A DNA stretch of 64,000 bases from Escherichia coli (GTDB taxonomy: Bacteria > Pseudomonadota > Gammaproteobacteria > Enterobacterales > Enterobacteriaceae). The position numbers are program-made. Shown here piece by piece: positions 37,201-40,200 of the stretch. The DNA is taken from assembly GCF_003018255.1 (NCBI RefSeq), contig NZ_CP027440.1, one strand, 5' to 3'. Position 1 is the stretch's first letter. Every line of letters starts with the position of its first letter.

Positions 37201-40200
37201 GAATAATGACAGTGGCGTTAGACTTTGCAATCCCACGCACTACGGGGGCAAATCCGTTTTGGCTGGCAGGCAACATATCGTTATCGGTATACAAGCGTGC
37301 GCCACGAATTTGCGTACTGTCGAAGATATCGCTCGCCGTCCACGTATCACCTATCATAATCTGGCTTCTTAACGCAGCTATATCACGTTGTATCCAGGTG
37401 CTTATAGAGTTGTATTCTGCACTGCCATCGGTCGTATTTAAGGTGCTGTAATTGCGTAATCGCCACGGCCCAATATTCAGTCCATTGCGCAGATTGAGAT
37501 AACTGGTATCTGTCTCTTGTGAACCATAATCCGAACGTAGAGTATGTGAACCAGAAAAATCGTAGTTGATGGTGAGCGCGTTAATCCCCTCATCCCAACG
37601 CGAGGGGCTGATGTAATCATAAGCCATCGCATCCATATAGATTTGGGGAATGGAGATATTCAGTTGCAGTTTATCGCTGTCGAACTGCCATGATGAGCCT
37701 TCAATGCGTGGCCCAGGATCAATACAGACTGTTTCATCTACATCATTGAGCGATTTCAGCGCATCAACTTTTACGCCAAAGGTGGTTAGCGTTTTTTTAA
37801 TAGCGACAAAGCAGGCGTGTAAATCAGCATCGGGATTATCCTGAACAAAGGTCACATCCTGACGTTCAAACATTTTACCGTTGATAAAAATATCAACGCT
37901 ATAAACACCAGGGGGCATCAGGTTTGCCCGATTAAACTGGCGAATATCGACTCCGGATTGATGGTCGATTTCCAGAAGCGCCGGATTGAATACACTGACC
38001 TCGGCCATCAGGCTTTGCGAGAAAATCAGACACGTCCCTGCCGTGAGGCCAACCACTATTCTGGTCGTCATCATAATACGCCTATCCTTATCCCTTGCTT
38101 ATAGCGTCATTTTTATCGGGTCACTGACTGCGCCGTAATCATTAATAAATCGCCAGGTCATTTGACCTCCCGCAGAATTAGCAGGTAAAGGTAACGTGAG
38201 CGTTTCAAAAGGACGGATCATGTTGAGGGGCACATCATGACCATCAACGATGACATCCATCACACTGATATGAATCGGGTTGGGATTCTCTGCAATCAGG
38301 TTTCGCCCTTCCCGGTGCCACTTCACCTTCGGTGCAGCATCTTCGGGAATCAGGCGAATGCTTGCCGGTCGCCAGAACAGCTTGATACGCGTTTTAACTG
38401 CGATTTCCAGTGAGTTCGCCGCTTTGTTGCTCGCAGAGGGCGGAATATTTTTAATATTCAGCCAGAAGACTGACTCGCGATCATCAGGCAATGACACACC
38501 TTTGGTATGAATAATGCGTAATACTTTTTCTTGCGCGGGTTCTAATCGTGATACCGGAGGAATAACGGTAAACGGTGCTTTGCTTTTATCCTCTTTATTA
38601 AACGGATCTACCCATGCCTGGATGAGATAAGGAATTTTTTCTTCCTTGCTAAATACAGAAATAGATTTATCTGGGTTATTACTTAAGTAAACTACCCGTG
38701 TACCACCAATGACAACGCCTGCATAGGTTAATGCTGGTTGGACTAAAAAAACACTGAGTATAATCGCGGTAAATAACTTACATGAAACGGTTGTTTTAAA
38801 GAGCCTGATTAAACAACTTTTTCTGGACATAACGACTCCCTGGCCAAAGCCAACTGAATAAAAAGGCCCTTGATAAATTATTTCTTATATTCGACAGTAA
38901 ATTGTGAATCGGCGTTCGCCGTACCCGCCGTTACGGTTGCATTGGTTGCCACATAGCGTGCAATAAACTTCATTTCAGCCTTGCCTTCAGCGTCGATAGC
39001 GGTATAGGCAGAATCGTTATAAAGTTTAACCTGCGAGTTATCTGACTGGTTAAAAATACGAATACCGACACCCGTTGCCGCAATCGCTTGTCCTGTACCG
39101 GTAAAATCGCCAGGGTTGCCCGCTGTAAGCGGCGTACCCACTTTCAGGTCGCCGTCGCCGCCAGGCGCTTCTGTACCATCAAAACGAACGGCTGCCTGAG
39201 TGTAGGTTGCCGGGCACTTTTCAAGTTTAATACTGAACTGCTGTGGTGACGCCAGACTACCTACACCTGAAAATGCATTTTTACTGACTTTACCCAGTGG
39301 GACGGTTTGATCGGCTGTATCGGAGGTAACTTCACAAGTAGTGTCGACAATTTCACCGACGAAGTGAACAACACCATCTTCTGCCAGTGCATGTCCGGCC
39401 AGCATTAAAGATGCCAGAGTGAATGCACCGCCTATAATATTACGCTTCATAAAAACTCCATTGATATAATATATCCTTTACCATGAATCATCACTTATAT
39501 TAATAAGTGTATTTTTGATCCAAAGGAATAGTACACCAAAGAGACAACTTTATCCAAAAATAATATTAATCACTCAATCTTAAATATAAATTATTATTTA
39601 AATATTATTAAAACAGCAAGAAATCAAGTTTATTATCAGACATTAGCAATAATTCAGAATATATTTATATCAATGGGCATATGAATAATGGAATTATTGA
39701 TATCACTTATAAAAAAGGGCCGCCGGTCGGCAGCCCTTTTCTATCAACGAGAGATATTACTCAACCGTAACCGATTTCGCCAGGTTACGCGGCTGGTCAA
39801 CGTCGGTGCCTTTGATCAGCGCAACGTGGTAAGCCAGTAGCTGCAGCGGAACGGTGTAGAAGATTGGTGCAATCACCTCTTCCACATGCGGCATCTCAAT
39901 GATGTGCATGTTGTCACTGCTCACAAAACCCGCATCCTGATCGGCGAAGACATACAACTGACCGCCACGCGCGCGAACTTCTTCAATGTTAGATTTCAGT
40001 TTTTCCAACAACTCGTTATTCGGCGCAACGACGATAACCGGCATATCGGCGTCAATCAGCGCCAGCGGGCCGTGTTTCAGTTCGCCCGCAGCGTAGGCTT
40101 CAGCGTGAATGTAAGAGATCTCTTTCAGCTTCAATGCACCTTCCAGCGCGATTGGGTACTGATCGCCACGGCCCAGGAACAGCGCGTGATGTTTGTCAGA

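What the first reader, a model, noticed from the sequence alone, without database searches (positions are those of the whole stretch)
39712..39759. Unoccupied attTn7 site immediately beside the fimbrial island
The glmS 3' end and terminator form the Tn7 attachment site, with insertion about 25 bp past the stop codon. That position (about 39732) is intact and lacks Tn7 end repeats, yet the accessory fimbrial operon begins just beyond the terminator. This terminator-proximal region is known to accumulate foreign DNA; here the island is not Tn7-borne, so a different acquisition mechanism is implied.
Basis: partly seen in the sequence, partly recalled or inferred. Interest (0 to 1): 0.3.

Follow-up and report, generated by a model that had tools for sequence, protein, structure and literature searches.

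The report
Empty Tn7 docking site beside lpf
The flagged stretch is a genuine, empty Tn7 landing site at the end of the E. coli glmS gene, and the fimbrial operon next to it is a well-known, ancient resident of that spot rather than recently imported DNA, so the finding is correct but ordinary.

Summary
Observation confirmed. glmS (minus strand) stops at 39757-39759. A strong terminator hairpin follows at 39711-39740. The TnsD recognition sequence (39757-39792) matches K-12 at 35 of 36 bases, with all seven critical positions intact. The window holds no Tn7 ends or tns fragments.

Natural E. coli genomes with the same flank carry Tn7 exactly 25 bp past the stop codon.

Two corrections:
- The sequence at the insertion point is not the K-12 attTn7 sequence. 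Homology to K-12 stops 2 bp after the stop codon. The terminator belongs to the variable segment, which Tn7 does not require.
- The "island" is the lpfO113 / lpf2 / stg chaperone-usher operon. It has no mobile-element signature. It sits between glmS and pstS in about 42% of complete E. coli genomes. I found the same arrangement in E. fergusonii, Salmonella, Enterobacter, Citrobacter and Pseudocitrobacter. Published work already calls it ancestral to Escherichia and Salmonella.

No acquisition event at the terminator needs to be invoked. Long residence, with allele replacement or loss by homologous recombination in the conserved flanks, fits best.

Already known; low interest.

The parts
39757..39792 (-). 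TnsD-binding part of attTn7: the last 11 glmS codons plus the stop codon (+23..+58 from the insertion centre at 39734)
   Evidence: Matches K-12 at 35 of 36 bases. The only difference is at +44 (39778), a wobble base. The critical positions +31, +33, +42, +43, +45, +51 and +54 are unchanged. It is the only such site in the window.
39732..39736 (-). Predicted Tn7 target-site duplication (GGGCT on the minus strand), present here as a single copy, so the site is unoccupied
   Evidence: Occupied homologues ETEC4077 (L006) and 1EC213 (L011) read glmS-TAA, then 25 bp ending in GGGCT, then Tn7R ... Tn7L, then GGGCTGCCGACCGG.
39711..39740 (-). glmS intrinsic terminator hairpin and T-run, in the lpfO113-type version. 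The Tn7 duplication is the first 5 nt of its 5' arm.
   Evidence: RNA fold -28.6 kcal/mol, z = -6.3; inverted repeat I7. A structurally equivalent hairpin with a different sequence follows glmS in every haplotype and genus compared.
39757..41586 (-). glmS coding sequence
   Evidence: ORF list; annotation of a genome identical over the region compared; 97.0% nucleotide identity to K-12 glmS.
39451..39710 (-). AT-rich spacer (about 25% G+C) between the terminator and the lpfA start; presumed lpf promoter and regulatory region
   Evidence: Composition profile. Promoter-like matches only. Partly conserved with Pseudocitrobacter vendiensis near lpfA.
34471..39450 (-). lpfABCD-O113-type chaperone-usher fimbrial operon: lpfA 38878-39450, lpfB 38099-38830, lpfC 35552-38074, lpfD 34471-35541
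   Evidence: Pfam domains Fimbrial, PapD_N/C, PapC_N/Usher/PapC_C and Fimbrial. Annotated as lpfA/B/C-O113 plus a fimbrial protein in a genome identical over the region compared; the fourth gene is annotated lpfD-O113 in 1EC213.
34329..39754 (.). Variable segment relative to K-12: 5426 bp here replaces 206 bp of K-12-specific spacer
   Evidence: BLAST of the K-12 pstS-glmS region against the window. Homology ends at 34328 and resumes at 39755. The O157 lpf2 haplotype shares the same pstS-side breakpoint, 34328.
34224..34328 (-). Conserved pstS promoter with Pho boxes; this is the pstS-side boundary of the variable segment
   Evidence: The aligned block that includes it is 98.8% identical to K-12. 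It is conserved in all haplotypes and genera aligned.

Best explanation
The flagged stretch is a functional but empty TnsD-type Tn7 attachment site.

How it works. TnsD would bind the conserved end of the glmS coding sequence (39757-39792). It would then direct TnsABC to insert Tn7 about 25 bp past the stop codon, with the right end next to glmS. The insertion would duplicate GGGCT (39732-39736) in the 5' arm of the glmS terminator. The sequence at the insertion point is irrelevant to targeting.

The neighbouring operon. It is the lpfO113 / lpf2 / stg chaperone-usher cluster. It is a long-standing occupant of the glmS-pstS spacer in Enterobacteriaceae and exists as several deeply diverged alleles. 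In E. coli the spacer has three main states: a K-12-type 313-bp spacer, the lpfO113 type and the O157 lpf2 type. All three are bounded by the glmS stop codon and the pstS Pho-box promoter.

What is shown and what is inferred. The site anatomy, the lack of any mobile-element signature and the shared synteny are shown. It is inferred that these states are inherited, and swapped or lost, by homologous recombination in the conserved flanks rather than by site-specific insertion.
For: attTn7:
- The TnsD site matches at 35 of 36 bases with the critical positions intact.
- It is the single match in the window.
- Thirty natural genomes carry Tn7R exactly 25 bp past the stop in an lpfO113-type flank, and 2 in an O157-type flank. 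Two of them were inspected: glmS-Tn7-lpfABCD-pstS with duplication GGGCT.
- Occupancy is about 1.6% of 1915 lpfO113-type genomes and about 2.1% of 3063 K-12-type genomes.
- An O157:H7 laboratory strain carries mini-Tn7 at the equivalent point.

Not Tn7-borne and not integrase-borne:
- No Tn7 ends or tns fragments.
- No meaningful flanking repeats.
- No tRNA.
- Divergence from K-12 starts 2 bp after the stop, not 25 bp after it. The 206 bp of K-12 spacer are replaced, not split.

Long residence:
- The same gene order occurs in Pseudocitrobacter, Citrobacter, E. whittamii (partial locus), E. fergusonii, another Escherichia sp., Salmonella and Enterobacter.
- Census of 5426 complete E. coli genomes: 56% K-12 type, 35% lpfO113 type, 6.5% O157 type.
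- Within E. coli, lpf dS (0.01-0.12) is similar to flank dS (0.06-0.13).
- The literature agrees.

Recombination:
- In Escherichia inter-species comparisons, lpf alleles are far more diverged (dS 0.5-1.4) than the flanks (dS 0.12-0.30).
- Diversity in the last 430 bp of glmS is about twice that of the rest of the gene.
Against: - No experiment was done. TnsD binding and insertion in this particular strain are inferred from homologous genomes.
- The direction of the presence/absence change is not shown. The 206-bp K-12 spacer has no detectable similarity to the ends of the lpf segment, so loss in K-12-type genomes and gain in lpf-type genomes cannot be told apart from sequence alone.
- The dS pattern is not that of simple vertical descent. 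Lpf dS is about equal to flank dS against Pseudocitrobacter but 3-5 times higher against E. fergusonii.
- Weak codon bias in lpf genes could inflate their dS.
- The cross-genus survey was a small sample chosen by similarity, not a systematic one.
- The simple terminator scan did not call the hairpin.
Confidence: 0.82

Rival explanations
1. The lpf block was delivered by a Tn7-like element that inserted at attTn7 and whose ends and tns genes later decayed.
For: Tn7-family elements do build genomic islands downstream of glmS (established knowledge). The block lies directly downstream of glmS. One 16-of-22 match to a TnsB site sits at the pstS-side boundary, starting at 34344.
Against: - No terminal repeats and no tns fragments.
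- TnsB-site near-matches are at the chance level, 5 against about 4.
- Divergence from K-12 begins 2 bp after the stop, not 25 bp after it.
- No K-12 spacer sequence survives on either side of the block, and no 5-bp duplication flanks it.
- The same operon occupies this locus in several genera.
- Real Tn7 inserts upstream of the block, between glmS and lpfA, which shows the two are independent.
Confidence: 0.02
2. The lpf block is a recently acquired pathogenicity-type island brought in by an integrase, a phage or illegitimate recombination into an empty K-12-like spacer within E. coli.
For: G+C content is lower (25-50%) than in the flanks (about 52-55%). Presence is patchy in E. coli. The operon is associated with diarrhoeagenic strains in the literature.
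Against: - No integrase, tRNA, direct repeats or IS at the borders.
- The K-12 spacer is replaced, not interrupted.
- Diversity of the block within E. coli equals core diversity.
- The same locus is occupied in other genera.
- Published reconstructions call the operon ancestral.
- Low G+C is usual for fimbrial operons, so it is not diagnostic.
Confidence: 0.05
3. Strictly vertical inheritance: the operon has been passed down unchanged in position since the enterobacterial ancestor, and K-12-type genomes simply deleted it. No inter-lineage recombination is involved.
For: Synteny is conserved across genera. Lpf dS is about equal to flank dS against Pseudocitrobacter. The literature states it was present in the common ancestor.
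Against: - Against E. fergusonii and another Escherichia species, lpfA-D dS is 0.5-1.4 while flanking pst and glmS genes give 0.12-0.30.
- Three lpf types with only 63-73% usher identity share the locus.
- Diversity is elevated in the glmS 3' end next to the block.
- The K-12 spacer carries 206 bp of unrelated sequence, not a clean deletion scar.
Confidence: 0.1

Closest known systems
E. coli K-12 attTn7 (glmS 3' end plus glmS terminator; Gay 1986, Mitra 2010 PMC2918618)
   Same: The TnsD-binding sequence is the same at 35 of 36 bases. The spacing is the same, with insertion 25 bp past the stop. Insertion falls in the glmS terminator. Orientation is the same, with Tn7R next to glmS.
   Different: Everything from 2 bp past the stop codon differs in sequence. 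The terminator is a different hairpin, and the duplicated pentamer is GGGCT rather than GCGGG.
lpfO113 long polar fimbrial cluster of LEE-negative STEC (Doughty 2002; called lpfB1 in PMC6033998)
   Same: Four genes, lpfABCD, between glmS and pstS. NCBI annotation of a genome identical over the region compared uses the lpfA/B/C-O113 names. The block is 97.7% identical to that of ETEC4077.
   Different: The upstream spacer and the glmS 3' end are a rare variant. Only 4 of 5426 genomes are at least 99% identical over 39451-39900, and most lpfO113-type genomes are about 90% identical there. LpfD is 84% identical to the common LpfD-O113 cluster.
O-island 154 / lpf2 of E. coli O157:H7
   Same: Same locus, same orientation, same pstS-side breakpoint (34328), and a related terminator stem (GGGCTGCC...GGCGGCCC).
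   Different: It has five genes, including a duplicated lpfD. Nucleotide identity over lpfB-C is only about 67%. The glmS-lpfA spacer is 699 bp rather than 306 bp.
stg fimbrial operon of Salmonella (S. Typhi, S. bongori) and APEC Stg fimbriae
   Same: The literature calls it orthologous and places it at the identical locus. A Salmonella enterica genome with glmS, four fimbrial genes and pstS in that order was seen here.
   Different: Protein identity to the window is only 44-68%. The statement that APEC stg lies in the glmS-pstS region (Lymberopoulos 2006) is from memory; that paper could not be read here.
Tn7 and Tn7-like genomic islands at glmS
   Same: They use the same chromosomal landmark, the downstream end of glmS.
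   Different: The lpf block has no Tn7-family ends, no tns genes and no duplication, and it starts at the wrong distance from the stop codon.

Membership tests
TnsD-dependent attTn7 site | A 36-bp TnsD-binding sequence at the 3' end of glmS, with the critical positions +31, +33, +42, +43, +45, +51 and +54 conserved | tested here: met
   Window 39757-39792 matches K-12 at 35 of 36 bases. The only change is at +44. It is the unique match in the window.
TnsD-dependent attTn7 site | [quoted passage not shown] | tested here: met
   Shown in homologous occupied genomes, not in this strain. L006 and L011 have Tn7R 25 bp past the stop, with GGGCT duplicated and Tn7R next to glmS. There are 30 such genomes.
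TnsD-dependent attTn7 site | Physical binding of TnsD and recruitment of TnsC at this sequence | not testable with these tools
   This needs a gel-shift or an in vivo transposition assay.
Unoccupied state of attTn7 | No Tn7-family ends or tns genes between glmS and the next conserved gene | tested here: met
   The 306-bp glmS-lpfA spacer has the same length as in E. fergusonii (306 bp) and is close to another Escherichia sp. (304 bp).
Tn7-borne genomic island | Terminal inverted repeats (TGT...ACA) with arrays of TnsB-binding sites at both borders | tested here: not met
   No match to the terminal 20-mer at up to 3 mismatches. End DNA gives no hit better than E = 0.13, and 22-mer near-matches are at the chance level.
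Tn7-borne genomic island | tnsABC plus a target-selector gene, or their remnants | tested here: not met
   tblastn of TnsA-E and IntI2 against the whole window gave a best E of 0.09, which is noise. The block is filled by four fimbrial ORFs.
Tn7-borne genomic island | The island begins at the +25 insertion point and is flanked by a 5-bp duplication | tested here: not met
   Divergence from K-12 starts 2 bp after the stop, and no flanking duplication was found.
Integrase-type genomic or pathogenicity island | tRNA or tmRNA anchor, integrase gene and flanking direct repeats | tested here: not met
   No tRNA in 30000-45000. No integrase domain in the block. Only AT-rich repeats at the chance level.
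Lpf2 / LpfO113 / Stg chaperone-usher fimbrial operon | Major subunit, PapD-type chaperone, usher and tip or minor subunit genes in one operon | tested here: met
   Pfam hits, all far above the curated cut-offs.
Lpf2 / LpfO113 / Stg chaperone-usher fimbrial operon | Located in the glmS-pstS spacer and co-oriented with both genes | tested here: met
   The same layout is seen in other genera. The literature agrees.
Lpf2 / LpfO113 / Stg chaperone-usher fimbrial operon | Assembly of fimbriae and an adhesive function | not testable with these tools
   All four ORFs are intact. Expression and function need experiments.

The most novel reading that the evidence does not exclude
The glmS-pstS spacer may act as a cassette-exchange locus. 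Deeply diverged lpf/stg alleles, older than the Escherichia species splits, would be kept and swapped across species and even genera by homologous recombination. The exchange would be anchored on the invariant end of glmS (which is also the TnsD site) and on the pstS Pho-box promoter. It would leave a diversity hot spot in the last ~400 bp of glmS that stops short of the TnsD footprint. Tn7's safe-haven site would then sit at the exact edge of one of the more recombinogenic polymorphic loci of the chromosome.
Probability: 0.35. Interest if true: 0.3.

Novelty: already known. Interest (0 to 1): 0.1.

Why it matters
The practical value is small. The analysis fixes where a mini-Tn7 would land in lpfO113-type E. 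coli: duplication at 39732-39736, between glmS and the lpf promoter region. It also shows that the lpf block does not hinder use of the site in nature.

Conceptually it corrects a tempting inference. An accessory-looking, low-G+C operon next to a known insertion hot spot need not have arrived through that hot spot, or recently.

The uneven divergence of the lpf alleles relative to their flanks is a modest lead for people who study recombination and fimbrial diversification.

Tried and rejected
- The simple terminator scan found nothing at the site. I rejected this as a false negative after folding the sequence.
- I looked for relics of the K-12 206-bp spacer inside or at the ends of the lpf segments of the window, O157, Citrobacter and Pseudocitrobacter. 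Only 11-15-bp matches with E of 0.1 or more turned up, so the direction of the change could not be settled.
- I tested whether the second mini-Tn7 copy inside lpfC of the O157 laboratory strain marks a pseudo-attTn7 site. Identity to the TnsD footprint is 12 of 36, which is chance.
- An Rfam search of 33000-43500 found no family at the site. The hits overlapping 39607-39840 are far below the gathering scores.
- The first literature search was swamped by the neuroscience term pSTS.
- Doughty 2002 and Lymberopoulos 2006 are not held in the library. What I say about them is from memory.
- The genome-contig scan recovered only three loci because it relies on exact peptide patterns. I compensated with a protein search and contig look-ups.
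Full report
WHAT IS AT THE COORDINATES

The window is E. coli chromosome. It is collinear with K-12 from tnaA to rbs. All of the following genes are on the minus strand:
- glmS, 39757..41586, with its stop codon at 39757-39759.
- A four-gene chaperone-usher operon: lpfA 38878-39450, lpfB 38099-38830, lpfC 35552-38074, lpfD 34471-35541.
- pstS, 33183-34223.

Downstream of the stop codon the minus strand reads TAA TATCTCTCGTTGATAGAAAAGGGCTGCCGACCGGCGGCCCTTTTTTAT. The hairpin has stems at 39729-39736 and 39717-39724, a GACC loop and a T-run at 39711-39716. It folds at -28.6 kcal/mol with z = -6.3, and none of 200 shuffles folded as well. The pattern-based terminator scan missed it. 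The likely reason is that the A/U extension of the stem consumes part of the T-run that the scan requires.

IS IT attTn7, AND IS IT EMPTY?

Mitra et al. 2010 (PMC2918618) state two things. The only sequence requirement for attTn7 is the 36-bp TnsD-binding site (+23..+58) at the end of glmS. The sequence at the insertion point can be changed without effect.

Taking 39734 as position 0, the TnsD site is 39757-39792. It differs from K-12 at one base, +44 (39778), which is a wobble position. The seven positions found critical (+31, +33, +42, +43, +45, +51, +54) are unchanged. No other sequence in the 64 kb resembles it; the next best site scores 23 of 36.

The window contains none of the following:
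- The Tn7 terminal sequence, at up to 3 mismatches.
- Tns or IntI2 protein fragments. The best tblastn E-value is 0.09.
- Similarity to 200 bp of Tn7R or 170 bp of Tn7L beyond chance.
- An excess of near-matches to TnsB sites. There are 5, against about 4 in shuffles.

A NATURAL EXPERIMENT FIXES THE INSERTION POINT

I searched 5426 complete E. coli genomes with the Tn7 right end and found it in 113 of them.

In pig strain ETEC4077 (L006) the order is glmS, then Tn7 (tnsABCDE and a class 2 integron), then lpfABCD-O113, then pstS. The left junction is glmS-TAA plus the same 25 bp as in the window, ending GGGCT, joined to TGTGGGCGG. The right junction resumes with GGGCTGCCGACCGGCGGCCC. Strain 1EC213 (L011), which has a variant of the flank, shows the same architecture and the same duplication.

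The duplicated pentamer is window 39732-39736.

A junction-specific query found 30 genomes with Tn7R at this point in an lpfO113-type flank and 2 in an O157-type flank. It found 63 in a K-12-type flank, some of which are engineered laboratory strains. With denominators of 1915 and 3063 genomes, occupancy is about 1.6% and 2.1%. The lpf block therefore does not impede use of the site.

WHERE THE CONSERVED BACKBONE ENDS

Alignment with K-12 shows that homology on the pstS side stops at 34328, 105 bp upstream of the pstS start and just past the Pho boxes. On the glmS side it resumes at 39755, 2 bp beyond the stop codon. The 5426 bp between those points replace 206 bp of K-12-specific spacer.

The terminator and the Tn7 insertion point are therefore part of the variable segment. 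"Intact" is true only in the sense of uninterrupted.

The O157:H7 lpf2 haplotype (OI-154) shares the same pstS-side breakpoint and a related terminator stem. Its genes are only about 67% identical.

Census of 5426 genomes:

| Spacer state | Genomes | Share |
|---|---|---|
| K-12 type | 3063 | 56% |
| lpfO113 type | 1915 | 35% |
| O157 lpf2 type | 355 | 6.5% |

The window's own version of the spacer and the glmS 3' end is rare. Only 4 genomes are at least 99% identical to it.

WAS THE BLOCK "ACQUIRED" HERE?

Nothing marks it as mobile:
- No tRNA.
- No integrase or transposase.
- No border repeats beyond AT-rich chance matches.
- No remnant of the K-12 spacer on either side.

A Tn7-mediated origin is further excluded by the boundary lying at +2 rather than +25, and by real Tn7 inserting between glmS and lpfA.

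G+C content is lower than in the flanks, but this is usual for fimbrial operons.

The same arrangement, glmS then four or five fimbrial genes then pstS, all co-oriented, occurs in:
- Pseudocitrobacter vendiensis and Citrobacter werkmanii.
- E. whittamii, where only a partial locus was recovered.
- E. fergusonii.
- Another Escherichia species.
- A Salmonella enterica genome.
- Enterobacter hormaechei.

Each has its own terminator hairpin about 15-20 bp after an essentially invariant TnsD site.

The literature already says this:
- Wurpel et al. 2013 equate E. coli Lpf with Salmonella Stg. [quoted passage not shown]
- Yue et al. 2012 list stg as the orthologue of lpf2 in the same locus (PMC3373541).
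- PMC6033998 places the four-gene lpfB1/lpfO113 cluster between glmS and pstS, as in OI-154.

HOW THE STATES ARE PROBABLY EXCHANGED (INFERENCE)

Synonymous divergence gives a mixed picture.

| Comparison with the window | lpf genes, dS | Flanking genes, dS |
|---|---|---|
| ETEC4077 (within E. coli) | 0.01-0.12 | 0.06-0.13 |
| P. vendiensis | lpfA-C 0.70-0.87 | 0.62-1.02 |
| E. fergusonii and another Escherichia species | lpfA-C 0.53-0.81; lpfD 1.3-1.4 | 0.12-0.30 |

Three usher types, only 63-73% identical, share the locus.

Inside E. coli, the last 430 bp of glmS are 2.3-5.3% divergent, against 1.1-2.2% for the first 1400 bp. The final 30 bp, which lie within the TnsD site, are nearly invariant.

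Together this fits old allelic cassettes that are inherited, replaced or lost by homologous recombination in the conserved flanks. It fits neither clean vertical descent nor a recent insertion.

Two caveats apply. Weak codon bias in lpf genes can inflate dS. Whether the K-12 state arose by loss or the lpf state by gain is not resolved.

VERDICT

The negative conclusion, that the block is not Tn7-borne, is correct. The positive implication, that foreign DNA accumulated at the terminator through some other acquisition mechanism, is not supported.

All elements are already described: attTn7, lpfO113 / lpf2 / stg at glmS-pstS, and the use of attTn7 in lpf-positive strains. Interest is low.

Noticed in passing
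L005 (NZ_CP176687.1, E. coli O157:H7 laboratory strain GTVSS-023), locus 2183-4829 and 9001-11647: There are two copies of the same mini-Tn7 (cat cargo), 6.8 kb apart and in the same orientation. One is at attTn7 (duplication AAGGG). The other is inside the lpfC usher gene (duplication CCATT). The second site has no resemblance to the TnsD footprint (12 of 36). Two nearby copies are unexpected given Tn7 target immunity. This may be an engineering or assembly artefact.
   Followed up: partly
L006 33440-33622 (ETEC4077): The Tn7 left end in this strain is a sequence variant: it ends ...GTCCGTCTACA, where the canonical end is ...GTCCGCCCACA, with several other differences. The right end is canonical. 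This suggests a hybrid or diverged Tn7 left end.
   Followed up: no
window 39757-40190 (3' end of glmS): This is a local diversity hot spot. The window differs from K-12 at 23 of 400 positions here, against about 1-3% in the rest of glmS and under 0.5% in the atp genes. The window's 3' end is 4.2-5.3% from the other E. coli sequences compared, nearly the E. coli to E. fergusonii distance (5.8%).
   Followed up: partly
window 43202-43359 (+): Full-length match to the enterobacterial sRNA STnc410 (Rfam RF02060, 182.7 bits) in the glmU-atpC spacer.
   Followed up: no
L001 12079-12537 (strain 200164), corresponding to window ~43119-43466: Strain 200164 is identical to the window over 39451-39900 but carries an IS200C transposase between glmU and atpC. 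The window has only a 348-bp spacer there, so the window is not from that exact assembly, or the IS is polymorphic.
   Followed up: no
window ~21399-21408: About 625 bp of K-12 (L007 7990-8615, covering cbrC) have no counterpart in the window. cbrC appears to be absent or replaced.
   Followed up: no
L002 (NZ_CP132594.1, a K-12 strain), locus 1-3000: Lambda Red genes (exo, bet, gam, a kil fragment) and an integrase lie directly downstream of glmS. This is presumably an engineered insertion at or near attTn7.
   Followed up: no
L014 1779-3608 (Salmonella enterica GCA_042823615.1 glmS): The first 1400 bp of this glmS are only 6.4% from E. coli, but the last 430 bp are 13% away. This looks like a possible mosaic gene next to the stg-type operon.
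   Followed up: no
window 34344-34365 (-): A 16-of-22 match to a Tn7 TnsB-binding site lies right at the pstS-side boundary of the lpf segment. The region is AT-rich and the overall count of such matches equals the chance expectation.
   Followed up: yes
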